Below the pieces are notes generated by a model, which saw only the letters and a list, made by a program, of their open reading frames with translations, was not told the DNA's origin and did no database searches. A stretch of 40,988 nt of DNA from a virus. Numbering within the stretch: the first letter of the stretch is position 1; each line of letters opens with the position of its first letter. The stretch is taken from the UHGV virus genome UHGV-0160030, one strand, 5' to 3'. Below, one piece after another: positions 16,335 to 40,922 of the stretch. A program made the translations under genes and the position numbers.

Positions 16335-16550
16335 TTACTCTCCCCGTGCAGCCTTACGACGGTCCTCTCTGATTTTGAAATACAGGTTAGTCAGATATGT
16401 CAGGAAGCCCAGAACCAGACTCCCCAGTACACCAATCGCAGCCCACTGTGACGGACTGACCTGATCAAGCCACTGTAAAAACCAGTAGCCAGCACTGCCT
16501 GCGGAGGTGCCGTAGGCAATGCCCGTTGAAATTTTATCCATGGATTTCAT
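16335..16550 (-). CDS. S: Pinholin (phage 21 S-like class II holin) with dual start motif
   Basis: 71 aa [27 protein letters not shown]...; two TM segments; Met1/Met4 dual start; strong GGAGGTGAGG RBS; the track ORF start at 16649 is an upstream extension. Confidence 0.8.
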
Positions 16551-16990
16551 AGCCTCACCTCCGCAGCGAACGGATGGCGTAGTTATAAGGGGAGCGAAAA
16601 AGAAAGAATGCGCGATTGCGCAATATGGTAACGTCAGGGTATTATCCACTGGCTGAATAGATCACTTCACGTTTTTTGTTCCTTGCCGCCCGTATCCATA
16701 TGCGGGCTTTTTTTTGCATGTAAAAAGGCCCCAACACATGTGCGTGGGGCCTGAGAGTATACATGGTTTCAGTCAACTGCATGGTGCCGGGTGCCTCCCG
16801 GTGAATTCAGTACCAGCACCTGAATCCGCGATTATCCCATATACCTACTCGCTGATTGCCCCTCCGCACAGGGGGATTCACCATGCCAGTTTCTTTTAAC
16901 AAACTCCCCGCAAAACAGACAACTGTCAACCGTCTGAATTGTGAGACATTTAAAAAAAGGCCCGCAAAAGCGAGCCGGGAAAAATAAGTC

Positions 16991-17067
16991 TGGCGCGTTG
17001 TACTGGATTCGAACCAGTGACCGATTGCTTAGAAGGCAATTGCTCTGTCCGGTTGAGCTAACAACGC
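16991..17067 (-). tRNA. tRNA-Arg (anticodon UCU)
   Basis: Hand-folded cloverleaf: acceptor GCGTTGT/ACAACGC, anticodon loop CUUCUAA, T-loop TTCGAAT, CCA encoded. Confidence 0.8.
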
Positions 17068-17080
17068 AGGGTACAGATAA

Positions 17081-17157
17081 TGGACCGCCATCGAGGACTC
17101 GAACCCCGCGCAACCAGCTTCGAAGGCTGGCGCTCTATCCTGATGAGCTAATGGCGG
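17081..17157 (-). tRNA. tRNA-Arg (anticodon UCG)
   Basis: Hand-folded: anticodon stem CCAGC/GCTGG, loop CUUCGAA, T-loop TTCGAGT, 3' CCA; exact 5' end uncertain by 1 nt. Confidence 0.7.
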
Positions 17158-17164
17158 TATGTGA

Positions 17165-17240
17165 TGGTGGCCCTTGCTGGATTTGAACCAGCGACCTGGC
17201 GATTATGAGTCGCTCGCTCTCACCACTGAGCTAAAGGGCC
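17165..17240 (-). tRNA. tRNA with anticodon CAU (Ile2 lysidine-type or Met), resembles E. coli ileX
   Basis: GGCCCTTTAGCTCAGTGGT...CTCATAA...GGTTCAAATCC...CCACCA. Confidence 0.75.
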
Positions 17241-25302: not shown

Positions 25303-25413
25303 TCTTTAGTCTCACACCAGATACTTTGTTATCCAACGATGTTAACCACAGGAACCCAAAGTATCAAGAAATTCTGTTACTTTAGTATCAACAGCCATGA
25401 GAGGAGAAGAAAA
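25303..25413. promoter_or_regulatory. Right operator/promoter region (divergent PR/PRM-like) with CCAAAGTATCAA-type operator motifs
   Basis: GTATCA at 25361 and 25385, inverted partial copy at 25320; 12-mer CCAAAGTATCAA at 25356 repeated at 26095. Confidence 0.55.
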
Positions 25414-26070
25414 ATGAAGTCTTTAGGTGAACGTCTCATCAACGCACGGCAAAAAGCTGGGTTAACACAAGATGCGTTGGCTAAAAAAGCTGGGGTCACC
25501 AGAGTTGCAATCAGTAAAGCCGAGCAAGGCCTTACAAAAAGTTTCAACGGTGACACCCTTTTTAAAGTTGCAGCTGCACTGCAGTGTTCACCGCAGTGGC
25601 TTCAGAACGGAGATGAAAAAGATAAGCATTGGGAAAATAATGTTAAGAGCTGCCCACAGAGAGACACAGCATACTCTTACCCTGTAATTAACTGGGTTCA
25701 GGCAGGATTATTCGCAACTTCTGGTGATGACTACAACATGTATGATCAGGATAATTGGAGGCATTCTGTAAAATACGCTGGTGAGAGGGGGTTCTGGCTG
25801 GAAGTGCACGGAGACTCAATGACTTCGCCCGTAGGAATAACATTTCCTGAAGGAATGTCGATCCTTGTCAACCCAGATAAAGAAGTTTTTTCAGGGTGTT
25901 ACGTCATCGCCAGAAAAAAATCCACCAATGAAGCAACATTCAAAAAATATATTTCTGACATGGGAAAGGCGTTTCTAAAGCCCCTTAATCCACAATATCC
26001 AATCATAGAAATGGACAATGATTGCGAAATAGTAGGTGTTGTGGTTGATGCCAGGTGGGATATTTTCTAA
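25414..26070 (+). CDS. cI: CI-type repressor: N-terminal HTH plus C-terminal S24 (LexA-like) autopeptidase domain
   Basis: 218 aa from ATG 25414 with GAGGAG RBS; HTH LTQDALAKKAGVTRVAISKAEQG; Ala-Gly cleavage site; GDSM serine motif. Confidence 0.85.
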   Translation: MKSLGERLINARQKAGLTQDALAKKAGVTRVAISKAEQGLTKSFNGDTLFKVAAALQCSPQWLQNGDEKDKHWENNVKSCPQRDTAYSYPVINWVQAGLFATSGDDYNMYDQDNWRHSVKYAGERGFWLEVHGDSMTSPVGITFPEGMSILVNPDKEVFSGCYVIARKKSTNEATFKKYISDMGKAFLKPLNPQYPIIEMDNDCEIVGVVVDARWDIF

Positions 26071-26173: not shown

Positions 26174-26590
26174 ATGATCAATAAAGCTACAACTCTTGAC
26201 TGTCTCGAAGAACTGAAAAACCTCGGCAGCCTCATTACACTAATAGCAAAAGCAACACCTGATGCTACGCTCTCTAGCGATATAGAGTCATGCGCAGGGC
26301 TGGCATGGGATATGACAAATAGCATATCCAGAAAGCTATCGTCAGCAATGCTTTTACAGAATAAAAATTCTGCAATCAACAACCGTCTTCGCACCCAACG
26401 CGAAGCCTGCGGCTTAACAACCGCCGAACTCGCCAGGCTGCTCGATCTCGATGAAGAAATTATCATCCAGTGGGAGAGCGGAGAGTATGAACCAACTATC
26501 AGTATGCTTATCCCACTGGCAAATATTCTTGGCTGCGATCCGATGTGGCTGTTAACTGGTAAACCAACAGGTGGGGATACTTGCGCATGA
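26174..26590 (+). CDS. XRE-family HTH protein with N-terminal extension, first gene of leftward operon
   Basis: 138 aa; C-terminal HTH LTTAELARLLDLDEEIIIQWESGEYEP. Confidence 0.6.
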   Translation: MINKATTLDCLEELKNLGSLITLIAKATPDATLSSDIESCAGLAWDMTNSISRKLSSAMLLQNKNSAINNRLRTQREACGLTTAELARLLDLDEEIIIQWESGEYEPTISMLIPLANILGCDPMWLLTGKPTGGDTCA

Positions 26591-27726: not shown

Positions 27727-28086
27727 ATGACACATGAACCCATTAATACATATCGTCGCCGTATAGCTGTTGCAGCACTCCATCGAATAAAACGTAAAAC
27801 AGGTGGTGATCTGCTTATTGTTGACCTTCTGGATGGGAACATTACGACCATAGAAATAACAGAACAGTTTATAAACCAGTTGCTGTTGCGCTTTGAAGAT
27901 ATTACCCGTGGTGAATTGGGTCGAGTGGAGGGTGAAACAGAATTCCGAACTGCATACCAGAATGCCATCGGGATTAATCAACATACTGAATACCAGGCTG
28001 AAACCGGAAAGTTAATTATAGACAACCTTTTACAAGAGGTTATTGATTACGCGAAAGAAAAATATATCAGCGGAGGAATTAACTGA
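27727..28086 (+). CDS. Hypothetical protein (119 aa)
   Basis: ORF, coupled ATGA overlap with next gene. Confidence 0.55.
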   Translation: MTHEPINTYRRRIAVAALHRIKRKTGGDLLIVDLLDGNITTIEITEQFINQLLLRFEDITRGELGRVEGETEFRTAYQNAIGINQHTEYQAETGKLIIDNLLQEVIDYAKEKYISGGIN

Positions 28087-28301
28087 TGGCTAATTTATCC
28101 CCTGTATCTGTTGTGCACGAAAAAGTGCAGATCGTTATGACAATTGAAAATGGCCAGGTAACAGATGTCTGCAAAGTCCGCGATGGAGAGCTGATTGCCA
28201 GCATGGATACATTCATATGGCTGGCAGAAAGAGCGGGGTATCAGATAACAGCACCTGCTCAGGAGGAAACCAGTGACATTAACAGCAACGCGAATTCCTG
28301 A
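28086..28301 (+). CDS. Hypothetical protein (71 aa)
   Basis: ORF, ATGA overlap with previous gene. Confidence 0.5.
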   Translation: MANLSPVSVVHEKVQIVMTIENGQVTDVCKVRDGELIASMDTFIWLAERAGYQITAPAQEETSDINSNANS

Positions 28302-28491
28302 GTGGGTCCACCAGCAGGCGTTGCTGGTCCTGCGGCGGTACAGATGCCGACGTATATTCCCGCATCGGATACAGCGCAACGGATATCTCAGTCTGAAGGT
28401 TAACCGTCGCTGGCGGCTGTTATCGAAAGACGACGGCCGGAACTGGGAAATAATGAGTCATGAACGTTATTCGGGAGAAATAAAGAAATGA
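28273..28491 (+). CDS. Hypothetical arginine-rich small protein (72 aa)
   Basis: GTG start 6 nt after AGGAGG; Arg-rich LLVLRRYRCRRIFPHRIQRNG...RRWRLL. Confidence 0.5.
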   Translation: MTLTATRIPEWVHQQALLVLRRYRCRRIFPHRIQRNGYLSLKVNRRWRLLSKDDGRNWEIMSHERYSGEIKK

Positions 28492-28880
28492 TCGACAACC
28501 GCACCGCCAGCGCCATTGACCAGGCATTACAGAAACATGATACACCCGTCGGCCCGTTATTTTTTGTAACACATCACGGAAGAACAAAAAAATGCCTCAC
28601 TCGAAAAACGGCAATTCGTTACCTGGCATTCTTTATGACCACCCGCGCTTTTGAACGTTCAGGATTCCGACAACGCCATCCTGACAAGCGTTTTATCTTC
28701 AACGGGAATGAAATATGGAAACGTGGAGAATCAACCACAGAGTACACCCGCGCACACCAGCGAACAATCAGACGACTGCGCAGACTCATCGCCAGGAAAC
28801 AGTATACAGAAAAATGGTTCAGAAAATATGACACATGGAGCGCCGGATATTACGAACTGATGGCAACAAAACCATTCTGA
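28488..28880 (+). CDS. Hypothetical basic protein (130 aa)
   Basis: ATGA overlap with previous gene. Confidence 0.55.
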   Translation: MIDNRTASAIDQALQKHDTPVGPLFFVTHHGRTKKCLTRKTAIRYLAFFMTTRAFERSGFRQRHPDKRFIFNGNEIWKRGESTTEYTRAHQRTIRRLRRLIARKQYTEKWFRKYDTWSAGYYELMATKPF

Positions 28881-28940
28881 CGTAAACGAAATTAACCATG
28901 ACGCAATTAAATAAGGCAAGCTGAATACAGCAGGAGGACC

Positions 28941-29129
28941 ATGAACATTTATTTCAGAATAGTTATATCACTGGCAATTATCGCATGTATTTACGGATTG
29001 CTCGTCCCGTTTCTGATATCAATGAAGGATACGGTAGCGGTGATTTCTGGCTTTGCACTGACGTTTCTAACCCCGCCATGTATTTATACCATTTATAAGG
29101 GGCTTTCTTTCACTAAGGATAAAAGATGA
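28941..29129 (+). CDS. Small two-transmembrane-helix protein (62 aa), coupled to SPFH gene
   Basis: AGGAGG RBS; two hydrophobic helices; stop overlaps start of next gene (ATGA). Confidence 0.65.
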   Translation: MNIYFRIVISLAIIACIYGLLVPFLISMKDTVAVISGFALTFLTPPCIYTIYKGLSFTKDKR

Positions 29130-29953
29130 AAAAAATTATTTTTTCTTTAGCCATTGTTCTGCCTGCCATTGGCCTTGTCGGTTGTGATCGTGTTGAGCCT
29201 GGTAATGTGGGCATCAAAGTCAACAAACTTGGCGACGACAAAGGCGTCGGTGAAGTGGTCGGTGTTGGTCGCTACTGGACAGGCTGGAACACTGAAGTTT
29301 ATATCTTCCCGACCTTTAAGCAGATGAAGACCTACGATGATCCATTCAGTTTCCAGATGAGCGATGGAACAACCATTGGTTACCACATCGGAGTAGCCTA
29401 CAAGGTTGATCCATCCAAAGTTACCACAGTCTTTCAGACCTACCGCAAAGGCGTGGACGACATTACCGACACCGACCTGCGCCAGAAGATAGCCGACGCA
29501 CTCAACCGACTGGCCAGCAAAATGACCACCGACAAATTTATCGACGGCGGCAAGTCTGAGCTGCTGGATGCAGCTCTTAAAGACATTCAGGAAGAAATGA
29601 CGCCCATCGGTATTCAGGTAATAAGCCTCTCATATGTGGGTAAGCCGGAGTACCCGCCTACTGTTATCGACAGCATTAATGCCAAAGTCACGGCGAACCA
29701 GAAAACTCTGCAACGCGAGCAGGAAGTAAAACAGCGCGAAGCGGAAGCCAACATGTTGCGCGCGGAAGCTGCCGGACAGGCTGATGCGATTCGCACAAAA
29801 GCCCAGGCTGAAGCCGATGCTATTCGTTTACGCGGTGAAGCTCTGCGTCAGAACCCCGGTGTTATGGAGCTGGAAGCCATCAATAAATGGAACGGCACGC
29901 TGCCGCAATACATGACCAGCGGTGCCAATACACCATTTATCCAGGTTAAATAA
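29126..29953 (+). CDS. SPFH/band-7 (stomatin/prohibitin/HflKC-like) domain lipoprotein
   Basis: 275 aa; signal peptide with lipobox LVGC; coiled-coil Ala/Glu/Gln-rich C-terminal region typical of SPFH proteins. Confidence 0.7.
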   Translation: MKKIIFSLAIVLPAIGLVGCDRVEPGNVGIKVNKLGDDKGVGEVVGVGRYWTGWNTEVYIFPTFKQMKTYDDPFSFQMSDGTTIGYHIGVAYKVDPSKVTTVFQTYRKGVDDITDTDLRQKIADALNRLASKMTTDKFIDGGKSELLDAALKDIQEEMTPIGIQVISLSYVGKPEYPPTVIDSINAKVTANQKTLQREQEVKQREAEANMLRAEAAGQADAIRTKAQAEADAIRLRGEALRQNPGVMELEAINKWNGTLPQYMTSGANTPFIQVK

Positions 29954-30024: not shown

Positions 30025-30366
30025 ATGAACTATGACCCAAATCTGACGTCATGCGGACGCATGGCGAAACAAACCGTTCGATTAACTTTCGGGCAATGGG
30101 AATACCGCGAAACATTCGAAGTCACTGTCGGTGGCAACCTGACCGGACTCGATGTTATCAGTTGCGCTATTGAAAGCCTGTACGCAACGCTGCCTTATGA
30201 AGAAGTCGAGGATGAGCGTACAGGGGAAACAGATATCATGGCCACCATTAATATTGGCGAACTGACATGCCAGGATGAAGACCTGTCCGGAGAGCTCTGG
30301 CTTGCCGGGATGCTTATCTCAGCAGAAATTATCAGTATTGAACCCGCTACAAACATACGGCTCTGA
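30025..30366 (+). CDS. Hypothetical acidic protein
   Basis: ORF; start ambiguous (ATG 30025 or 30061), both with weak RBS. Confidence 0.4.
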   Translation: MNYDPNLTSCGRMAKQTVRLTFGQWEYRETFEVTVGGNLTGLDVISCAIESLYATLPYEEVEDERTGETDIMATINIGELTCQDEDLSGELWLAGMLISAEIISIEPATNIRL

Positions 30367-30397
30367 AGTTCTCACTATTCAGAGAGCAGGAGAAAAA

Positions 30398-30640
30398 ATG
30401 TTCGCTTTGATTAATCAGGGACAACTGTATACCGACAGTGCCGGTTACCCGGTAATAATTATTCGCTGCATAAACAACACTGTGTTGTACAGAAGAATTG
30501 ATGGGCGAACACAGTCAGTAAAAATAAACGATTTCAATGAACTGTTTGAACGGATTGATCACCAGGAATACCGACAAATTCTGGCAGAAACAGAGCAGGA
30601 GGCTCATCTGAAAAAATTACGGGCCATGAAAAGGAAGTAA
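30398..30640 (+). CDS. Hypothetical protein (80 aa)
   Basis: ATG 30398 preceded by AGGAG; the track start is an upstream extension. Confidence 0.55.
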   Translation: MFALINQGQLYTDSAGYPVIIIRCINNTVLYRRIDGRTQSVKINDFNELFERIDHQEYRQILAETEQEAHLKKLRAMKRK

Positions 30641-33358: not shown

Positions 33359-33637
33359 TTAAAACCACTCCCTGAGCGGGCGCTCTGGTGTAACCACCCA
33401 CTCACGGAACACGGATTCATCAAAGCCATCGTCAAGAAGACGAATATTAACAAAGTACCCTTCGTCTCGCGTGTATTCAGGCTCCCCGTCAGCAGAAACA
33501 CCTGACTCACTGAACGTAAAACCAATCTCATCAACCAGAACGGCATTCTGCAGCTCTTCGTCCTCTTCCCAGTTAAGTTTCCTGAGAAATGCCCTGAAAT
33601 CTGCTTTATCACTGAAACGCAACGTGAAATCTCTCAC
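33359..33637 (-). CDS. Hypothetical acidic protein (92 aa), possible tail fibre assembly/accessory protein
   Basis: GTG start overlapping stf stop (GTGA coupling); position of tfa in lambda but no sequence resemblance recognised. Confidence 0.45.
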   Translation of the reverse strand: MRDFTLRFSDKADFRAFLRKLNWEEDEELQNAVLVDEIGFTFSESGVSADGEPEYTRDEGYFVNIRLLDDGFDESVFREWVVTPERPLREWF

Positions 33638-35697
33638 TCCACAACCTCCCCAAGCTGCGCATCTGTTAGCTCTTTATGCCAGAGACGAAAATTCCTCACA
33701 TGCCCAAATAAATGGCGTAATCCTGCTGTAGTTTGTCCACCAATGCGAATGGTTGCTGTACTCCGGATATATTCCCATTTGGTTTTAGTTTCGCTGCTTA
33801 ACTTACCGTTACTGACTACACATGTGGACCGTTCGGACTTTACCCGCATACCAATAAGCATTTTTTCCAGCCCGGCATTTTCATTTATTCGTCGGTCTGA
33901 ACCACCTATATCGCAATACGGAAAACCGTCGTACCCACCTGATGAACCAAACCCCATTACGATCCCCGCATCTGCCTGATGCCGGTATGTGTCAAAAACA
34001 CGCGGTGCTGCATTTGGCGTTTTATACCAGTTCTTATGTACCTCACAAAGAACCGTAAAAGGAAGATTATAAAGATTATTCTTAATCGGAACTGTAACCA
34101 TATCGCTTGCCCGCGTTACCGGTGCCGTCCCCGTAACAATAAAAGATGATGCGCCTGTACCAGCCTCAATCTGTGGAGTGGTTACATCGAGATAATCCCC
34201 TGATGCAACCATCTGCCCTGTATCCGGAGAATACTGGACAAAACCACCAACCGTATTTTCTGTTGTATCTGCTTTTAATGTAGCCTCAAAAAATATCCAG
34301 CCAGTTGCATCATCCTTAACAGACCTTGCTGTAACACGGCTTGTCTGACCTGTCTTGCTAATTATGCGGGTGGTAAGGTTCAGGTTTGCTGCTCCTATTG
34401 ATGTCCTTACCTCCCCATCATAATGTTCAAATAAAATACGAACGGCGATATTATCAACTTCACTTTTTACCCGACAGGATATAGTTACATGCTTTTCGTC
34501 CCCTGAAGTATCAACCCCTCCGGTACTCGAATACAGTCCGATAATGGTATGCGCTTTACTTGTACCAACAATCGAATCCTGTACGACAAACCGGCCATAA
34601 TTAAACCCGAAACTATCTGTGCCTGTTTCTGTAACGTCCAGTGAAGTTGACTTATTCCACTTCGAAGGGTCTGTACTGTTCTGGAAGAAGTTCGTTCTTT
34701 GTCCCTCAATAAGCAGGCCATCACACTCAAATCGCGGCTCATTAATTTCCGCCGTTTTCAGTTCGCCAGATTTGTTGATATATGTTGCCGTTGATGCGCG
34801 ACTGAAATTAATCTGTTTATCACTGGCAACCTGAACCACATTATCGCCAATCTTCACTTTTTTATAACCCGGAGAATAGCCCGTAATCATATCCAGCGAA
34901 TCATTAAAGGGTATCCACACATCCGGCAGCGGCTGTAAAACATATCTGTACGGCTCTGCTGTCTGGTTTGCGTATTCTCTGGCAGCATCTTCACTTGCTT
35001 TTGCTGCCGTCTGGCTTGCTGCCGATGCTTTCGCCGAGTTCGCCGCCGCTGTTTCGCTCACCTTTGCGTTGGCTTCACTGTCTTTGGCATTCGTCTCACT
35101 GGTTTTCGCTGCCGTCTGGCTGGATTTTGCGTTTTTTTCGCTGGCCTTTGTGGCTGTCTCGCTATTTTTCGCGCTGGTTTCTGATTTTTTGGCTGCTGTC
35201 GCGGAGTTTGCCGATGCAGTCTGCGAGGCCGCTGCCGCCTGTGCGCTGTTAGCTGCATTCGTTTCTGAGGTTTTCGCCGCATTCTTCGATGAGGCTGCTG
35301 CCGTTTCGGATTTCTTTGCCGCCGCTGCACTCTGTGATGACGCTCCGGCATGACGTGCCACTTCATTCACCATCAGCTCAAAACGGCGCAGTGCCTCCGG
35401 ACGGGCATCATCCTCCGTCATGGCACCGAGAAAATCATTCAGCGTACCTGGTCTGGAACCTTCATAGACGGTAATGGTCCCGGCATGTGAAGGTGGAAAA
35501 CCTTCAACCAGCAGGGTGACGCTGTACTGGCCATACTCAACATCCATGCTGTAACGCCCGGCTTCATCCGGATTTTCAGAGGCCACCGTGTTCACCACCA
35601 CCGTGCTGCTGGTCCGTCTGGCCTTCAGCACAATGGTGCAGTTCTGTACTGGTTTTCCTGTGCCATCTTTAAGCACGCCAGAAATTTTTACTGTCAT
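33634..35697 (-). CDS. stf: Side tail fibre protein
   Basis: N-terminus MTVKISGVLKDGTGKPVQNCTI... matches recalled lambda Stf; Ala/Ser/Thr-rich repeats; divergent C-terminal domain. Confidence 0.85.
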   Translation of the reverse strand: MTVKISGVLKDGTGKPVQNCTIVLKARRTSSTVVVNTVASENPDEAGRYSMDVEYGQYSVTLLVEGFPPSHAGTITVYEGSRPGTLNDFLGAMTEDDARPEALRRFELMVNEVARHAGASSQSAAAAKKSETAAASSKNAAKTSETNAANSAQAAAASQTASANSATAAKKSETSAKNSETATKASEKNAKSSQTAAKTSETNAKDSEANAKVSETAAANSAKASAASQTAAKASEDAAREYANQTAEPYRYVLQPLPDVWIPFNDSLDMITGYSPGYKKVKIGDNVVQVASDKQINFSRASTATYINKSGELKTAEINEPRFECDGLLIEGQRTNFFQNSTDPSKWNKSTSLDVTETGTDSFGFNYGRFVVQDSIVGTSKAHTIIGLYSSTGGVDTSGDEKHVTISCRVKSEVDNIAVRILFEHYDGEVRTSIGAANLNLTTRIISKTGQTSRVTARSVKDDATGWIFFEATLKADTTENTVGGFVQYSPDTGQMVASGDYLDVTTPQIEAGTGASSFIVTGTAPVTRASDMVTVPIKNNLYNLPFTVLCEVHKNWYKTPNAAPRVFDTYRHQADAGIVMGFGSSGGYDGFPYCDIGGSDRRINENAGLEKMLIGMRVKSERSTCVVSNGKLSSETKTKWEYIRSTATIRIGGQTTAGLRHLFGHVRNFRLWHKELTDAQLGEVVE

Positions 35698-35711
35698 ACT
35701 TTTCCACCAAT

Positions 35712-35743
35712 AAAAAAAGCCCGCAGCAGTGACGCCACGGGCT
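35712..35743 (-). terminator. Intrinsic terminator downstream of lom
   Basis: plus strand aaaaaaagcccgcagcagtgacgccacgggct; minus-strand stem AGCCCG/CGGGCU then U7. Confidence 0.55.
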
Positions 35744-35848
35744 TCAGGACAATGTAACTTTACGTTTCCTCAAACGCAGTTCACCCCATAAGGCGGATGA
35801 ACCTGCGTATCATAACAATATTTACAGAAGATAAATCGGCGTCTGTTG

Positions 35849-36448
35849 TCAGAAACGGTATCCGATACCAACAATAAATGCATCCGTTCGCCAGTCGCCA
35901 CTGCCGGAGCCTTCATAAGCAATATCAATGGCCACGGATTCGGTCGGGTTAAACTGCACGCCAGCTCCCCACGCCAGAGAGGTATTGCTGTGGCGACCGT
36001 CATCACTTCCGGTCAGCACGTCGTGCGTTTTCCCCTTGTTGTCAGTTACGCGGAGATAATCCCCGGAGAAAGTCGACACACGGCTGTAAGCCACACCCGC
36101 GATCGCATACGCGCTGAACCATTCATTCACGCGCACAGACGGCCCCGCCATCACGCTGAACCAGCGGTTACGCACGGAATCTTCATGCCAGCGGGTATCG
36201 CTGTAATGCGTTTTTTGCTCATCTTTGGCATTGGCATAACTGAATGACGTCACCAGCCCCAGCGTGTCCGTAAATTCATAACGGTATTTCACGTTAATGC
36301 CCTTCAGGTCATCGCTGCCTGGCATATCAGTATGGGTCTGAAGATACCCGGCGCTTAGTGTGGACTGATGCTCTGCTGCGCTCGCTGGCGTACCAGCGGC
36401 AACCAGCCAGACTACTGCGGACAGAATAACAGCACATAATTTACGCAT
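35849..36448 (-). CDS. lom: Outer membrane beta-barrel protein Lom (Ail/Lom family)
   Basis: 199 aa; signal peptide; C-terminal aromatic residue (IGYRF); position between J and stf as in lambda. Confidence 0.85.
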   Translation of the reverse strand: MRKLCAVILSAVVWLVAAGTPASAAEHQSTLSAGYLQTHTDMPGSDDLKGINVKYRYEFTDTLGLVTSFSYANAKDEQKTHYSDTRWHEDSVRNRWFSVMAGPSVRVNEWFSAYAIAGVAYSRVSTFSGDYLRVTDNKGKTHDVLTGSDDGRHSNTSLAWGAGVQFNPTESVAIDIAYEGSGSGDWRTDAFIVGIGYRF

Positions 36449-36472
36449 AATTACCTCTCGCTTTTCTGCAAT

Positions 36473-36496
36473 AAAAAAGGCGCCATTTCTGGCGCC
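36473..36496 (-). terminator. Intrinsic terminator between J and lom (GGCGCC palindromic stem plus U-run)
   Basis: plus strand aaaaaaggcgccatttctggcgcc. Confidence 0.55.
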
Positions 36497-36515
36497 CGTA
36501 TTGGGGTTATAAAAT

Positions 36516-39500
36516 TCAGCTAATCGTGATGCCTGCAGTGGCTTTCTTCATCACAACAACCAGCAAATCGCTGATACTTGCTGTGGGATACCAGCCATTT
36601 ACCCACCATGCTGATACAGAAAACTCCAGCGTCATGTCGCCGCGACCAGCAGGCATATCAATAACACCACTGTAAACCAGCGTATTATCCATCGCGGTAC
36701 GGTTATAAATTTCAGCACCGTTTTTCTTCACTATCAGGCGGCATGACGAATAAGTATCGCTGTTCTCCCGCTCATGTCTGGCACCGCTGAAAGCCACCGC
36801 CGGAATAACAATCTGCCGGTTAAACGGCTGATCGTCATAAACCCTGACGGTAATGGTTCCTGATGGCCAACGCTTCGGTGCACGGGAGTCACGAGGGAAA
36901 GCCTTACCCACTGTTTTAACGAGATCGCCTTCAATCTGGTTTGCAGACAGTTTCCCTCTGATGACACAGTTCTTGTTAATGGTGACATTATTGAGCGTGC
37001 CGGTATTCGCCGTGATGGCTCCACTGATATCCGCATTGCGGGCTGTCAGCCTGCCATCCGGCGTCAGGGAAAACGTCGGAGGATTGCCGGATGACGTGAT
37101 GCTCACCGCAAACAGTCGCTTCAGGAACACGTCGTTCATGAACAGCTGATTCCCCTGCGCCACAAACAGCGGCGTGGTGTTGCCGTTCTCCGGGGTAATC
37201 ATCGCAATGCGATCGGCCTGCAGCAGAATGTTACTCAGGGTCTGACCATCAACATCCTCAATCCCCGCACCAATCCCGGCCACATAGGGAATACCGTTTT
37301 TTGTTTTCTGCACCTTCAGCATATACATGGCATTCAGCTCATTGCGCGTGTCTGACTGAACCCGCTGGATTTGCTGTATGGTCACGGCCTGGTCACCCAG
37401 CTTTTTATCCGTGGTCGAGGTAATTTCACTCCCTTTTTTATCCACGTACTGGCGGACCTGTGCTATCTGTCGGGCGTTTTCTGACTGCCCCTGGCTGACA
37501 GTCTGTGAGATTTCACTGCTCACCCGGTCCACTTTCTGGCTCACCTGCGCGATGGCCAGTGTCTGATCCTCATTCTTTTTCGCAACCAGCTGCGTGAGGC
37601 TGTTTTCCGCCTTCCCGATTTTCCGGGTCACTTCTGCGATATCCGTGTCCATCCGCTGACGGATATCTTCTTCCAGTTGCGTGACCTCCGTACGCAGCGC
37701 TGAAGCATCAATGCGCTCTTTCAGTGCCTGACCCAGAAGCGTCTCATCTATCAGCCCCCGGAAAATTTCCAGATACCCTTCACCATCATTGCTGGGCTGC
37801 CCGCTGGCTTCCACAAAAGCAGATTTTCCCACCAGGTTGACGCTTCGCACGTAAAACCAGAAATCCGTCCCCGGCTTAATCCGGCTCCCCTGGACAGTCC
37901 ACTGACTGCCGGTCCCCAGATAACGGGCAGATTTTTCCACCTGTGCTGTGTTCGTGATGCGTTTTTCTGAGAACCAGAATTCAAACTGTACCGTCGGGTC
38001 ATACACCGCAAGACGCGGGACCGCCGTTATCTGAAAATACCCCGGCGTCAGCTCAATGGTGGCGGGTTTTGCAGGTGCGTTAATCCGGAACGATACCGAC
38101 GCCGGATCGCCCTGCTGTCCCCGGGCATTTACCGCCCGGACCGTCAGCGTGTAACGCCCCAGCGCCAGCTGCCTGAAGCGGTAAGTGGTTTCCGCCGTCC
38201 GGGCCGTGCTGACCAGCCGCTCACTGCCGTCATCCGCTGTTACGGTCAGACGGAGCAGGAAGCTCACGCCCTTCACCACCTTCGGCGTGTCCCAGCGCGC
38301 CAGCACCTGATATTCCCCGCTGTCTGCGGTGACTTCGGCGGTCAGGTGCTGCACCGCTGGCGGCGTGACACCATTCACCGTGCCGCTCTGGTCGCCGTCA
38401 AAGTGCGCTCCGTTATCCACGATGGCCTCTTTTTCCGGTACATGCTGCACGGCGGTGATGGCATACGCACCGTCATCGTTCTCCCGGATACTCACACAGC
38501 GGAACAGGCGCTGGCGCAGCGTCGGCAGCTTCAGCCCCCACACGCTGTATTCGGCAACGCCGTCAGGAATACGGCTCACTTTCACCTTCACGCCGTCGGT
38601 GACGGACTGGACCTCCACGCTGACCGGATTCCCACTTCCGTCAACCAGGCTTATCAGCGTGGTGCCGGAGGATGACAGCATGATTTCACGGTCGAGCGTC
38701 AGCGTCCGGGTCTGGCTGTTCACCGCCAGCACGCGCCCGCCGGTGCTGATACCGGCATAGTCATCATCACAGATTTCAATGACATCGCCCGGAACATGGC
38801 GAAGCCCTTCTGCGCCGACGCTGAAGTCCACGGTCTGCGTTTCCAGCAGTTCTGTTTTAATCAGCCACAGCCCGGCGCGGTGTGCCTGCCCCCGGCTGGT
38901 ACAGCCAAAGGCATCCATCTTCGTGACGTTACGACCGTAACGGGCAATGGCCTGCGTGTCCTCCACAAGCTCTGTTGCCGTCTCCCAGCCGTTATCCGGG
39001 TCAATCCAGTTCACCTCAACGGCATTATGGCGGTCCTTCAGGGCGCTGAAGCTGTAGCGGAACGGCGCGCCATCATCCGGCATCACCACATTACTGCGGT
39101 TATAGGTCCACACCTTATCCGACGGTCGGTCCTGCACGAACGTCAGCGTCTGCCCGTTCCATACCGGCATACAGCGCATCGCCGAGCAAAAATCACTGAG
39201 CACATCCCACGCCTTGCGCTGTGTGGTCAGGTACGCATTACAGGTGATGCGCGGCTCCGTGCCGCCAAAGCCGTCCGGCACTGACTGGTCGCAGTACTGG
39301 CCGATGACATACAGCGCCCATTTATCCACATCCGCTGCACCAAGACGTTTCCCCATGCCGTAGCGCGGATGGGTCAGCATATCCCACAGACACCAGGCCA
39401 TGTTGTTGCTGTATGCCGGTTTAAACGTTCCGTCCCAGATACCGCTGTATTGCCGCGTCTGCGGGTTATAATTCGACGGCACCTGCAGAATACGCCCGCG

Positions 39501-40214
39501 CAGATGATAATTACGGCTCACCTGCTGGCTGCCGAACTGTTCCGAGTCCACCTGTACGCCGACCAGTGCCGTGTTCGGGTAGCACTGTTTCACATCGATG
39601 ATTTCGGTGTATGACGACCAGAGCGTTTTGTTCTGCAGCTGGTCTGTGGTGCTGTCCGGCGTCATCCTGCGCATCCGGATATTAAACGGGCGCGGCGGCA
39701 GGTTATCCACCACCACCGAGGCCAGATACTGCGAGGTGGTTTTGCCTTTAATGGTGATGTCTTTTTCCGTCACCCAGCCACCATTACGCTGTATCTGAAC
39801 CAGCAGGCGGACTTCCGACGGATTCCGGTCACCCTTTGAGGTGGTTTCCACCAGTGCCTGCACACCGAAGGTAAAGCGCAGACGGTCGATGTTTGCCGAC
39901 GTGATGGTGCGGGTGATCGGCGTGTCATATTTCACTTCTGTACCGAGCACCGTCTCGGAGCCGGAGGATTCAAAACCTTCCGGCGGTGTCTGCTCCTGCT
40001 CACCTGCCCGGAACACCACCGTGACGCCGGAGATGTTGGTATTCCCCTCACTGTCCAGCACCGGCGTACTGTTCAGCAGCACGCTTTTTAATCCATCCAC
40101 CGGACCTTCAATCGGCCCTTCGCTGATGGCATCAATCACACTCAGCAACTGCGTGGATTTCAGGTTGTCCTTCGCTTCGCGCGGGGTATGCCCCTTACTG
40201 CTTCCTTTGCCCAT
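36516..40214 (-). CDS. J: Central tail fibre / host specificity protein J
   Basis: 1232 aa; N-terminal ~900 aa match recalled lambda J ([37 protein letters not shown]...); C-terminal region longer and divergent. Confidence 0.9.
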
Positions 40215-40274
40215 TCGTCATGCTCCATAAACGACAAAACCGCCCGGAGGCGGTTTCACATGAAATATTTTGCA

Positions 40275-40922
40275 TCAGCGGCCAATCACCACAACCTGAC
40301 CACCGTCCCCTTCATCTGCCGTGCTGATCTCCTGAGAAACCACACGAGACCCCACGCGCATTTCACCGTACAGAACAGGCAGAACATTGCCCTGGGCAAC
40401 CATGTTATCCAGTGATGAGAAATAGGTGTTCTGCTTACCGTTATCCGTGCTGGTCGCTGTGGGCGTCCGGGCTTTCGGTGCCAGCATCTGGGCCACACCA
40501 CCCAGGATCATACTGGCCCCTGCCGCATACATGCCCGATACAGCCGCGGCACCCAGCCAGCCCACAGGGTTCCACCATGCCACCGCAATCAGCGCCGCCC
40601 CCAGCACCACCTGAAACACACCGCCACTTTTAGCTCCCGCCAGACGCGGCACGATGTGGATCACGGCACCATTTGCCAGCGGCTCATTAAGACGGGCAGA
40701 TAATTCGGTTTCACCTGCATCACGCCCGGCAATGCGCACCTGATACCAGCCGTCATTCAGTTTCTGACGAAACGCCGGGAGCTGTGTGGACAACGCCCGG
40801 ATGGCTTCAGCCCCCGTTTTTACACGAAGGTCGATGCGGCGGCCAAATCGTTGTAAATCCCCGTAAAGGCAGATGCGTGCCATGCCCGGTGACGCCAGAG
40901 GGAGTGTGTGCGTCGCTGCCAT
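40275..40922 (-). CDS. I: Tail assembly protein I
   Basis: 215 aa; MAATHTLPLASPGMARICLYGDLQRFGRRIDL...VVVIGR matches recalled lambda I. Confidence 0.9.
   Translation of the reverse strand: MAATHTLPLASPGMARICLYGDLQRFGRRIDLRVKTGAEAIRALSTQLPAFRQKLNDGWYQVRIAGRDAGETELSARLNEPLANGAVIHIVPRLAGAKSGGVFQVVLGAALIAVAWWNPVGWLGAAAVSGMYAAGASMILGGVAQMLAPKARTPTATSTDNGKQNTYFSSLDNMVAQGNVLPVLYGEMRVGSRVVSQEISTADEGDGGQVVVIGR

What the first reader, a model, noticed from the sequence alone, without database searches (positions are those of the whole stretch)
28941..29953. Translationally coupled 2-TM peptide plus SPFH/band-7 lipoprotein pair carried as phage cargo
A 62-aa protein with two hydrophobic helices overlaps (ATGA) a 275-aa protein that has a lipoprotein signal (lipobox LVGC) and a long coiled-coil region characteristic of SPFH (stomatin/prohibitin/flotillin/HflKC) proteins. 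Host SPFH proteins HflK/HflC regulate FtsH, which controls lambda CII/CIII stability, and SPFH membrane scaffolds recur in membrane-based exclusion and defence contexts. A phage-encoded periplasm-facing SPFH module might modulate the lysis-lysogeny decision or block superinfecting DNA entry. Both roles are my inference; I know of no characterised phage system of this architecture.
Basis: partly seen in the sequence, partly recalled or inferred. Interest (0 to 1): 0.75.

Follow-up and report, generated by a model that had tools for sequence, protein, structure and literature searches.

The report
Phage membrane-scaffold (SPFH) gene pair
This prophage carries a real, tightly linked gene pair, a tiny two-helix membrane protein plus a lipid-anchored SPFH scaffold protein, that recurs in hundreds of temperate and strictly lytic phages (including coliphage N4), so it is probably a phage infection function at the host inner membrane, but nobody has yet shown what it does.

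Summary
ORF A (28941-29129, 62 aa, two hydrophobic helices) overlaps by ATGA ORF B (29126-29953, 275 aa). ORF B has a signal peptide, lipobox LVG|C and Asp at +2. It matches Pfam Band_7/SPFH at E=2.9e-31, and its AlphaFold model matches HflK/C, prohibitin, erlin, stomatin, flotillin and QmcA cage subunits.

The pair is not peculiar cargo of this prophage. It belongs to PHROG families 1130 and 200 and equals coliphage N4 gp19/gp20. It also occurs in phiP27/Stx2 phages, P2-like P88, P1-like phage-plasmids, an Enc34-like Salmonella prophage and Burkholderia phi1026b. SPFH homologues lie in 413 phage records and 571 of 5426 complete E. coli genomes.

The small partner sits directly upstream in about 78 of 84 loci, and both genes are under purifying selection. 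Natural fusions (2-TM module, signal-like helix, lipobox, SPFH) tie the proteins together and fix the topology: partner N-in/C-in, SPFH periplasmic on the inner membrane.

Everywhere the pair sits in early or replication operons. It is present in virulent phages, which weakens a lysogeny-specific (HflKC/CII) role. Superinfection exclusion or envelope conditioning remains plausible but untested. No functional study was found.

The parts
28932..28937 (+). Shine-Dalgarno-like AGGAGG ahead of the small ORF
   Evidence: Read directly from the sequence.
28941..29129 (+). Gene for the 62-aa two-helix inner-membrane partner (phrog_1130; homologue of N4 gp19)
   Evidence: ORF. PHROG E=3.6e-23. No Pfam family. 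Conserved directly upstream of the SPFH gene in about 78 of 84 loci. dN/dS 0.10-0.30 in 14 of 15 comparisons.
28959..29018 (+). Predicted TM helix 1 of the partner (residues 7-26)
   Evidence: Hydropathy scans and alignment A3.
29007..29033 (+). Conserved end-of-TM1 and periplasmic-loop motif VPFLISMKDT (family pattern P-x-(L/M)-(I/V)-S-x-x-(D/S)-(S/T); Pro23 invariant)
   Evidence: Alignment A3. The same motif appears in about six sequence types of partner and in the N-terminal module of the natural fusions.
29034..29096 (+). Predicted TM helix 2 of the partner (residues 32-52), followed by a basic C-terminal tail KGLSFTKDKR (cytoplasmic by the positive-inside rule)
   Evidence: Hydropathy at a 17-residue window on the identical ORF and alignment A3. 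The topology is fixed by the fusion architecture.
29115..29119 (+). Shine-Dalgarno-like AAGGA for the SPFH gene, inside the small ORF
   Evidence: Read directly from the sequence.
29126..29129 (+). ATGA start/stop overlap (translational coupling)
   Evidence: The same 4-nt overlap occurs in most related loci, with 8-20 nt overlaps in N4-like and P1-like phages.
29126..29953 (+). Gene for the 275-aa SPFH/Band-7 lipoprotein (phrog_200; homologue of N4 gp20 and phiP27 L05)
   Evidence: Pfam PF01145 E=2.9e-31. PHROG E=9e-115. 62% identity to N4 gp20. AF2 and Foldseek.
29126..29188 (+). Lipoprotein signal peptide, lipobox LVG-C (Cys20 codon 29183-29185) and Asp at +2 (29186-29188)
   Evidence: Sequence. 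Cys20 is invariant in alignment A1. Asp+2 as the E. coli Lol-avoidance (inner-membrane retention) signal is established knowledge, not tested here.
29189..29749 (+). SPFH domain (residues 22-208), starting two residues after the lipidated Cys
   Evidence: Pfam envelope. AF2 strands and helices at pLDDT 80-95.
29657..29851 (+). Long Ala/Glu/Gln-rich helix (residues 178-242), the wall-forming coiled-coil element of SPFH cages
   Evidence: AF2 secondary structure. Full-length matches to cage subunits HflK/C, prohibitin, erlin and stomatin.
29879..29950 (+). Family-specific C-terminal motif AINKWNGTLPQYM...PFIQVK (low monomer confidence; probably an oligomer contact or cap)
   Evidence: Invariant K254, W255, G257 and P260 in alignment A1. 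pLDDT below 50 in the monomer model.

Best explanation
The two genes encode one inner-membrane complex that the phage makes as part of its own early lytic programme.

ORF B is exported, lipidated at Cys20 and, because of Asp at +2, kept in the outer leaflet of the inner membrane. Its SPFH domain lies flat on the periplasmic face. Like all structurally known full-length SPFH proteins, it most likely assembles through its long helix and conserved C-terminus into a closed homo-oligomeric ring or cage that fences off a patch of membrane.

ORF A is made in fixed ratio by translational coupling. It is an N-in/C-in hairpin whose conserved periplasmic loop (P-x-L-I-S-x-K-D-T) meets the SPFH base. It supplies the transmembrane part that a lipid-anchored SPFH lacks, so the pair works as a 'split' version of the usual TM-anchored SPFH protein.

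The purpose I think most likely is to condition or protect the inner membrane of the infected cell. That could mean excluding DNA entry or envelope damage by superinfecting phages, or stabilising the membrane until programmed lysis. It is not a lysogeny switch.

Steps shown here: gene reality, SPFH fold, lipobox, pair conservation, fusion-derived topology, and position in early operons. Steps inferred: inner-membrane sorting, cage formation, loop-SPFH contact and the biological role.
For: SPFH identity and cage-type architecture.

Lipobox: Cys is invariant across Enterobacteria, Pseudomonas, Burkholderia and Caulobacter phage homologues.

Inner-membrane location: Asp+2 in the window, P88, RCS47 and phi1026b. 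Family members also exist with an uncleaved single TM anchor and no Cys.

Pair as a unit:
- A 2-TM ORF lies directly upstream and overlapping in about 78 of 84 loci, across at least six partner sequence types that share one loop motif.
- Both genes are under purifying selection.
- About 20 of the 150 best 50%-identity representatives are natural fusions of 2-TM module, linker, signal-like helix, lipobox and SPFH. One of these is confirmed as a continuous ORF on two independent contigs.
- The fusion only makes topological sense if the partner is N-in/C-in and SPFH is periplasmic, which agrees with the charge distribution.

Early-programme placement:
- The window has no promoter or terminator hits flanking the pair, and it lies on the same strand as the repressor, xis and int.
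- In P88 it lies in the P2-type early operon with 4-nt overlaps to its neighbours.
- In P1-like RCS47 it lies in the slot of the C1-repressed ban operon.
- In N4 it lies just after the RNAPII genes.
- In a Salmonella prophage it lies between an ssDNA-binding protein and DNA polymerase A.

Presence in virulent phages. Usually there is a single SPFH gene per phage (415 places in 413 records), which fits a homo-oligomer.
Against: No experiment or computation here addresses the biological role.

- Cage formation is inferred from homology only. The monomer model has low confidence at the C-terminus.
- The mature SPFH protein is about 90% identical in siphophage, P2-like and P1-like backgrounds that use different receptors and entry routes. 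Known exclusion proteins are usually specific to one route, so this is unusual for that class.
- PADLOC has no match, and the PHROG annotations are 'lipoprotein' and 'membrane protein', not exclusion.
- The +2 residue varies across the family (S, T, D, G, F and others). Sorting may therefore differ between hosts, and N4 gp20 has Tyr+2/Asp+3.
- The partner is absent or different in some lineages: none in phiEa21-4, one TM in DL54, three TM in phiCbK.
- Expression timing is inferred from gene position, not measured.
Confidence: 0.4

Rival explanations
1. HflKC mimic or FtsH modulator. The periplasmic SPFH ring, with or without its small membrane partner, traps or re-tunes the host FtsH protease. 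This changes the stability of CII/CIII/Xis-type regulators in temperate phages, or of phage membrane proteins and LpxC in lytic ones.
For: HflK and HflC are the best solved-structure neighbours by sequence (E=2e-4) and among the top fold matches. HflKC is the only E. coli SPFH complex that faces the periplasm (established knowledge). Weak NCBIfam hits to hflC and hflK. The prophage has a CII-like regulator gene at 26174-26590. Small membrane or amphipathic proteins that modulate FtsH are known, for example lambda CIII, SpoVM and YccA (established knowledge). Others have proposed the same link (PMC8540360, PMC10269572).
Against: HflK/HflC equivalog scores are 24-26 bits against cut-offs of 134-159, and structural identity is about 17%. 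Prohibitin, erlin and stomatin match equally well. Only one SPFH gene is present, not a K/C pair. The family is present in strictly virulent phages, where a lysogeny decision is irrelevant. No residue-level evidence for an FtsH contact.
Confidence: 0.2
2. Counter-measure against membrane-targeting attack. The cage stabilises the inner membrane, or sequesters pore-forming host abortive-infection effectors or colicins, and so keeps the infected cell energised.
For: In P1-like phages the pair occupies exactly the slot that in reference P1 holds tciA (TerB-like, annotated 'tellurite or colicin resistance'), tciB and tciC. That hints at interchangeable membrane-stress modules. The broad, receptor-independent distribution fits a generic membrane function.
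Against: Slot sharing is weak evidence because phage hot spots hold unrelated genes. No homology to any known anti-defence protein was found, and nothing was tested.
Confidence: 0.12
3. Lysis-timing or export scaffold. The small holin-like protein and the SPFH ring organise holin rafts, or Sec-dependent export of phage envelope proteins.
For: The partner has holin-like features: 62-78 aa, two TM helices and a basic C-tail. Staphylococcal Kayvirus phages keep an SPFH protein (MbpS) and a small holin-like membrane protein (MbpV) inside the lysK-tgl lysis region, with a proposed role in Sec export (PMC7150955). N4 is known for delayed lysis (own knowledge).
Against: In every Gram-negative phage examined the pair lies in early or replication regions, far from the lysis cassette. 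In the window the P21-type holin, endolysin and Rz-like spanin lie at 14.9-16.6 kb on the other strand. There is no Pfam holin match above noise.
Confidence: 0.1
4. Lysogenic-conversion or virulence lipoprotein, expressed from the prophage for the benefit of the host.
For: A prophage-encoded HflK/C-like SPFH protein of Pasteurella multocida (PM0222, 25-35 kDa) is detected in lysogen cells and outer-membrane vesicles. It signals through TLR1/2, and its deletion attenuates virulence (PMC9872710). PHROGs files the partner under 'moron, auxiliary metabolic gene and host takeover'.
Against: Homology of PM0222 to this family was not verified. There is no own promoter or terminator. The pair is embedded in repressor-controlled early operons, and its presence in virulent phages cannot be explained by lysogenic conversion.
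Confidence: 0.08

Closest known systems
Coliphage N4 gp19/gp20, phiP27 L05, and P88 gp11/gp12 (PHROG families 1130 and 200)
   Same: This is the same gene family and the same two-gene architecture. N4 gp20 is 62% identical, with an 8-nt overlap to the 68-aa two-helix gp19. phiP27 L05 is 98% identical. P88 gp11/gp12 has the same 4-nt overlap.
   Different: None has a tested function. GenBank names such as 'putative serine protease' are unsupported, since Pfam finds only Band_7. The small partner and the signal peptide diverge strongly between phage types, while the mature SPFH protein stays about 90% identical.
E. coli HflK/HflC-FtsH complex
   Same: SPFH fold with a long wall helix, periplasm-facing orientation on the inner membrane, and the best sequence and fold neighbours among solved structures.
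   Different: The anchor is lipid rather than an N-terminal TM helix. There is one gene rather than a K/C hetero-pair. Equivalog models are far below threshold. A dedicated 2-TM partner is present. No evidence of FtsH binding.
SPFH-NfeD operons (QmcA-YbbJ, YqiJ-YqiK, Pyrococcus PH1510/PH1511)
   Same: An SPFH gene is coupled in an operon to a small membrane-protein gene, and the partner's TM helices are expected to sit in the fenced membrane patch. The QmcA-YbbJ structure is among the fold hits (8z5g).
   Different: The partner has no NfeD/OB-fold domain and no Pfam family. QmcA and YqiK face the cytoplasm (own knowledge), whereas this protein is exported and lipidated.
Phage superinfection-exclusion membrane proteins and lipoproteins (T4 Imm/Sp, T5 Llp, P1 Sim, P22 SieA, TP-J34 Ltp)
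   Same: They are early-expressed, non-structural, envelope-located small proteins or lipoproteins encoded by both lytic and temperate phages (own knowledge). This is the role class proposed here.
   Different: There is no sequence or family relationship. Those proteins are not SPFH scaffolds and are usually specific for one receptor or entry route.
P1 tciA-tciB-tciC (TerB-like module)
   Same: It occupies the same slot of the C1-repressed ban operon that holds the 2-TM and SPFH pair in RCS47-type P1 phages. It is also a larger protein accompanied by one or two tiny ORFs.
   Different: The folds are unrelated (TerB versus SPFH). The function of tci is also only inferred by homology.
Kayvirus MbpS (SPFH) and MbpV (small membrane protein)
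   Same: A phage SPFH protein lies next to a small, basic-tailed membrane protein (PMC7150955).
   Different: The host is Gram-positive, the branch is stomatin-like, and the genes lie in the lysis region. Homology to this family was not tested.

Membership tests
SPFH / Band 7 superfamily (Pfam PF01145) | Sequence match to the Band_7 profile above the gathering score | tested here: met
   E=2.9e-31, 109.3 bits against a cut-off of 23.6, residues 22-208 covering profile positions 2-176 of 176.
SPFH / Band 7 superfamily (Pfam PF01145) | SPFH alpha/beta fold followed by a long coiled-coil helix, as in cage-forming members | tested here: met
   AF2 model at pLDDT 79 with helix 178-242. Foldseek probability 1.0 to HflK/C, prohibitin, erlin, stomatin, flotillin and QmcA.
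SPFH / Band 7 superfamily (Pfam PF01145) | Assembly into a large ring or cage oligomer on a membrane | not testable with these tools
   Only monomer prediction is available. The conserved C-terminal motif has low monomer confidence.
HflK / HflC (FtsH modulators) | Score above the NCBIfam equivalog cut-offs (TIGR01932/TIGR01933, NF008181/NF008259) | tested here: not met
   20-26 bits against cut-offs of 134-660.
HflK / HflC (FtsH modulators) | Two paralogous subunits encoded together, each with an N-terminal TM anchor | tested here: not met
   There is a single SPFH gene with a cleavable lipoprotein signal instead of a TM anchor.
HflK / HflC (FtsH modulators) | Physical association with FtsH | not testable with these tools
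   Needs pull-down or cryo-EM.
SPFH-NfeD operon pairs | Partner protein carries an NfeD (OB-fold) domain, PF01957 | tested here: not met
   The 62-aa partner has no Pfam family at E<=0.01. Only hydrophobic noise appears at E<=10 across six homologues.
SPFH-NfeD operon pairs | SPFH gene co-transcribed with a membrane-protein partner gene | tested here: met
   4-nt overlap in the window, the same arrangement in about 78 of 84 loci, and natural fusions.
Bacterial lipoprotein (Lgt/LspA/Lnt substrates) | Signal peptide ending in a lipobox [LVI][ASTVI][GAS]C | tested here: met
   MKKIIFSLAIVLPAIG-LVGC. The Cys is invariant in diverse homologues, and a lipobox was found in at least 81 of 150 representatives.
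Bacterial lipoprotein (Lgt/LspA/Lnt substrates) | Actual lipidation, and inner-membrane retention through Asp at +2 | not testable with these tools
   Asp21 is present. The sorting rule is established knowledge for E. coli. Localisation itself needs fractionation.
PHROG phrog_200 / phrog_1130 (phage lipoprotein with membrane protein) | Profile match to both families | tested here: met
   phrog_200 E=9e-115 and phrog_1130 E=3.6e-23.
Known anti-phage defence systems (PADLOC-DB 2.0) | Match to any defence-system protein model | tested here: not met
   No family at E<=0.1 for either protein.
Holins | Match to a holin family, or location in the lysis cassette | tested here: not met
   No holin hit for the window protein, and one homologue hits Phage_holin_3_6 at only E=0.038. 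The prophage has its own P21-type holin at 16335-16649, an endolysin and a spanin.

The most novel reading that the evidence does not exclude
Phages from N4 to Stx-converting prophages build their own 'split' SPFH nanocage on the periplasmic face of the inner membrane. It consists of a lipid-anchored SPFH ring plus a separately encoded 2-TM fence subunit. The cage captures a universal host inner-membrane machine, such as FtsH or a DNA-entry or energy-coupling component. This would define a new, broadly distributed class of host-takeover or superinfection-exclusion device, and a minimal model system for SPFH cage biology.
Probability: 0.25. Interest if true: 0.8.

Novelty: new variant of a known kind. 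Interest (0 to 1): 0.55.

Why it matters
SPFH cages (HflK/C, prohibitin, stomatin, flotillin, erlin) have only recently been seen at high resolution, and what they do to the membrane patch they enclose is still debated.

This phage family is small, probably homo-oligomeric, lipid-anchored, and comes with a defined 2-TM partner. It is present in the tractable model phage N4 and in about 10% of complete E. coli genomes, including Stx2-converting phages. It would therefore be a convenient handle on that question.

For phage biology, it is one of the more widespread early genes of unknown function shared by temperate and virulent phages. Finding its role would annotate hundreds of phage genomes at once, whether that role is exclusion, FtsH control or membrane protection. 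It would also correct the legacy 'serine protease' label. If the gene is expressed in lysogens, a triacylated SPFH lipoprotein could also matter for host inflammation, as reported for P. multocida PM0222.

Tried and rejected
- PADLOC scan of both proteins: nothing.
- NCBIfam: only sub-threshold HflC/HflK/FloT hits.
- Pfam on the small protein and five homologues at E<=10: only hydrophobic noise, no NfeD and no credible holin.
- 'Putative serine protease' (GenBank label on phiP27 L05 and relatives): rejected. No protease domain is present, and the label derives from old 'membrane protease subunit' naming of SPFH proteins.
- Autonomous moron with its own promoter and terminator: the consensus scan found no + strand promoter-like site between 27756 and the pair, and no + strand terminator-like site before 30439. 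GC content is unremarkable.
- Literature: six full-text searches for SPFH together with prophage, phage-encoded, defence, exclusion, lysis or early genes found no functional study. The CRISPRi-ART and phage transposon-mutagenesis papers do not mention SPFH or lipoprotein, and the CRISPRi-ART paper mentions neither phage N4 nor gp20. The 'phage N4 / gp19 / gp20' search was unproductive.
- PhiSH19 neighbour annotated 'superinfection exclusion protein': it is a soluble acidic 106-aa protein, not the membrane partner, so it gives no guilt-by-association.
- ATCC 43886 as the source of the window: the 1061-bp query is 100% identical, but the flank beyond int and the lysis region differ. The window comes from a related prophage in another strain, and the TerB gene seen in ATCC 43886 is not in the window.
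- My first coordinates for the phiP27 small ORF were one base off. This was corrected.
- Homology of P. multocida PM0222 to this family could not be checked because no sequence was at hand.
Full report
**Observation.**
- ORF A runs 28941-29129 (+) and encodes 62 aa (MNIYFRIVISLAIIACIYGLLVPFLISMKDTVAVISGFALTFLTPPCIYTIYKGLSFTKDKR).
- ORF B runs 29126-29953 (+) and encodes 275 aa.
- The stop of A and the start of B share ATGA. AGGAGG lies at 28932-28937, and AAGGA lies six nt before the second ATG.
- ORF B starts with a textbook lipoprotein signal, MKKIIFSLAIVLPAIG-LVG|C, followed by Asp.
- Pfam assigns residues 22-208 to Band_7/SPFH at E=2.9e-31.
- An AlphaFold2 model built on 25 homologues (pLDDT 79) shows the SPFH alpha/beta core, a 65-residue helix (178-242) and a poorly defined C-terminus.
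- Foldseek against the PDB returns HflC/HflK, prohibitin, erlin, stomatin, flotillin, QmcA and major vault protein at probability 1.0.

**The pair belongs to a large phage family.**
- PHROGs places ORF A in phrog_1130 ('membrane protein') and ORF B in phrog_200 ('lipoprotein', E=9e-115).
- The nucleotide sequence is 92% identical to phiP27 (gene L05) and 89% identical to a series of Stx2-converting phages. The mature SPFH part is 87-90% identical to P2-like phage P88 and to P1-like phages such as RCS47.
- 571 of 5426 complete E. coli genomes carry it, with 241 places on plasmids; the plasmid records listed are of the size of P1-type phage-plasmids, but their identity was not checked.
- PGAP already annotates both genes: 'hypothetical protein' and 'SPFH domain-containing protein'.
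- tblastn finds homologues in 413 phage records. These include coliphage N4 (gp20, 62% identity), Vequintavirinae (Mydo, 4MG), Ounavirinae (phiEa21-4), Bruynoghevirus, Burkholderia phi1026b and Caulobacter phiCbK. Distant homologues occur in jumbo phages, crAss-like phages, Lak megaphages and a haloarchaeal virus.
- A full HMMER scan of 1.84 billion representatives gives 225 clusters at E<=1e-30 and 961 at E<=1e-10.
- SPFH folds are also common in predicted viral structures, all unnamed functionally.

**The small ORF is a real gene and a constant partner.**
- In N4 the 68-aa gp19 overlaps gp20 by 8 nt.
- In P88 the 67-aa gp11 overlaps gp12 by 4 nt.
- In RCS47 an unannotated 78-aa ORF overlaps the SPFH gene by 20 nt.
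- Across 90 loci held (80 from IMG/VR), 84 had a recognisable SPFH motif. About 78 of those have a 62-78-aa two-helix ORF directly upstream on the same strand, mostly with the ATGA overlap. In Vequintavirinae one 54-aa gene intervenes.
- The partners fall into at least six sequence types that are only 20-35% identical. All keep an invariant proline and the motif P-x-(L/M)-(I/V)-S-x-x-(D/S)-(S/T) at the end of helix 1 and in the short loop.
- Nei-Gojobori dN/dS is 0.10-0.30 for the small ORF in 14 of 15 comparisons and 0.02-0.05 for the SPFH gene. The remaining comparison, between two near-identical small ORFs, gave 0.96 and is uninformative.
- The partner has no Pfam family, is not NfeD, and is not a recognisable holin.
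- It is missing or different in some lineages: none in phiEa21-4, one TM in DL54, three TM in phiCbK.

**Natural fusions link the two proteins and give the topology.**
- About 20 of the 150 best representatives are 320-390-aa proteins. In these, the same 2-TM module with the same loop motif is followed by a linker, a signal-peptide-like hydrophobic stretch, a lipobox Cys and the SPFH domain. Several have no internal Met before the signal-like segment.
- One fusion (P0283) is a continuous ORF on two independent contigs in a phage-like context.
- Such a fusion can only place the SPFH domain outside the cytoplasm if the 2-TM module is N-in/C-in. That is also what the positive-inside rule predicts, since all partners have basic C-tails and a neutral or acidic loop.
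- Other family members have an uncleaved single TM anchor and no Cys.
- Asp at +2 is present in the window, P88, RCS47 and phi1026b proteins. It is the E. coli Lol-avoidance signal (established knowledge).
- Together these points argue that the family works on the periplasmic face of the inner membrane. The SPFH domain begins only two residues after the lipid anchor.
- The +2 residue varies across the whole family. N4 gp20 has Tyr-Asp. Sorting therefore remains an inference.

**Context.**
- The window is a phiP27-like prophage (terminase 'P27 family' in the close relative). Its repressor (25339-26070), CII-like regulator, several small ORFs, a ParE-like ORF, the pair, DUF5406, DUF4222, xis and int all lie on the + strand.
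- No promoter-like or terminator-like site brackets the pair, and its composition is unremarkable.
- The prophage has its own P21-type holin, endolysin and spanin 13 kb away on the other strand.
- In P88 the pair sits inside the P2-type early operon.
- In P1-like phages it sits in the C1-repressed ban operon, in the slot that holds tciABC in reference P1.
- In N4 it follows the RNAPII genes.
- In a Salmonella prophage it lies between an ssDNA-binding protein and DNA polymerase A.
- In Mydo, phiEa21-4 and phiCbK it lies among DNA- and RNA-metabolism genes.

The consistent picture is an early or middle lytic-programme gene, not an independently expressed moron. This is inferred from position, not measured.

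**Mechanism.** I am fairly confident about the following core:
- The pair is a two-subunit inner-membrane complex.
- The SPFH subunit is lipid-anchored, faces the periplasm and is probably homo-oligomeric, since there is one SPFH gene per phage.
- The co-translated hairpin partner supplies the transmembrane element that canonical SPFH proteins carry themselves, making this a 'split' SPFH protein.

The purpose of the complex is not settled by any result here.
- I favour conditioning or protection of the infected cell's inner membrane: exclusion of superinfecting DNA or damage, or membrane stabilisation until lysis. The reasons are that the pair is early, envelope-located, non-structural, and shared by virulent and temperate phages of many morphotypes.
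- The HflKC/FtsH idea keeps some weight, given the periplasmic orientation and HflK/C as nearest solved relatives. It loses its lysogeny-specific form because virulent phages carry the pair and the HflK/HflC models score far below threshold.
- Other rivals are a counter-measure to membrane-targeting attack (the tci slot in P1), a lysis or export scaffold (the Kayvirus MbpS/MbpV analogy), and a lysogenic-conversion lipoprotein (P. multocida PM0222).

**Comparison with known systems and novelty.**
- The protein is a member of the SPFH superfamily and of PHROG 200.
- It is not HflK/HflC, not part of an SPFH-NfeD pair, not in PADLOC, and not a holin (see membership tests).
- The gene family is known at annotation level, and speculation about HflKC is already in print. 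A 2026 paper still calls its presence in phages unexplained.
- I rate it a new variant of a known kind, with moderate interest (0.55). It is real, widespread, tractable in N4 and functionally open, but it is neither unique to this window nor a new observation.

Noticed in passing
window 28273-28491 (+): A 72-aa GTG-start ORF with a Pfam ParE_like toxin domain (E=1.6e-17). PGAP calls the identical gene in ATCC 43886 'ParE family toxin-like'. It overlaps the upstream 71-aa ORF (28086-28301) and the downstream 130-aa ORF (28488-28880), two genes before the SPFH pair. It may be a toxin-antitoxin-like element in the early operon.
   Followed up: partly
window 33634-40922 (- strand): Beyond int (ends 32404) the window continues into the tail end of a second lambdoid prophage: tail fibre (687 aa), Lom, central tail fibre J (1232 aa) and tail assembly protein I. 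The prophages are therefore in tandem. In ATCC 43886, which is 100% identical over the pair, int is instead followed by DUF72/yecN/cmoA. The window thus comes from a different strain.
   Followed up: partly
L003 2731-2967 (RCS47) and L091 15234-15930 (P1): In RCS47-type P1 phages the 2-TM and SPFH pair replaces tciA (TerB-like), tciB and tciC of reference P1, at the same slot between upl and the tRNA/ban genes of the C1-controlled ban operon. The 78-aa partner ORF is unannotated in RCS47.
   Followed up: partly
P0264, P0272, P0283, P0284, P0305 and others; L092 6001-7077, L093 1494-2570: Natural single-polypeptide fusions of the 2-TM partner, a signal-like helix with lipobox, and the SPFH domain occur in about 13% of the 150 closest 50%-identity representatives. 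If LspA still cuts at the lipobox, these would be self-splitting precursors of the two subunits.
   Followed up: partly
L094 2432-2650 (- strand), Salmonella phage PhiSH19: An unannotated 72-aa GTG-start ORF with two hydrophobic helices and a very basic loop abuts the start of the Kuttervirus SPFH lipoprotein gene. That gene belongs to a distant SPFH branch lacking the KW(D/N)G motif. This may be an independent recurrence of the architecture, or a chance ORF. The neighbouring 'superinfection exclusion protein' is a soluble acidic protein.
   Followed up: no
L001, L006 and many GenBank phage records: Homologues are widely annotated 'putative serine protease', 'transposase', 'protein QmcA' or 'Dda-like helicase'. 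None of these labels is supported, and only the Band_7 domain is detected. In phiP27, the Stx2 phages and RCS47 the small partner gene is not annotated at all.
   Followed up: yes
window 16991-17240 (- strand): There are three prophage tRNA genes (Arg-tct, Arg-tcg, and a CAT-anticodon tRNA called Met by ARAGORN, Ile in PGAP). They lie between the Q antiterminator/DUF968 region and the P21-type holin.
   Followed up: no
window 29174-29920 versus L002 and L003: There is a mosaic joint inside the gene. Nucleotide identity to the P88 and P1-like copies starts at the lipobox codons and stops about 33 nt before the stop codon. The mature SPFH protein therefore travels as a conserved cassette, while the partner gene, the signal peptide and the last 11 residues belong to phage-type-specific lineages.
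   Followed up: partly
window 30025-30366 and 30275-30640 (+): The DUF5406 and DUF4222 ORFs overlap by 92 nt as listed mechanically. The Pfam match of the second begins at residue 45, and PGAP calls a shorter gene. The real DUF4222 start is probably downstream.
   Followed up: no
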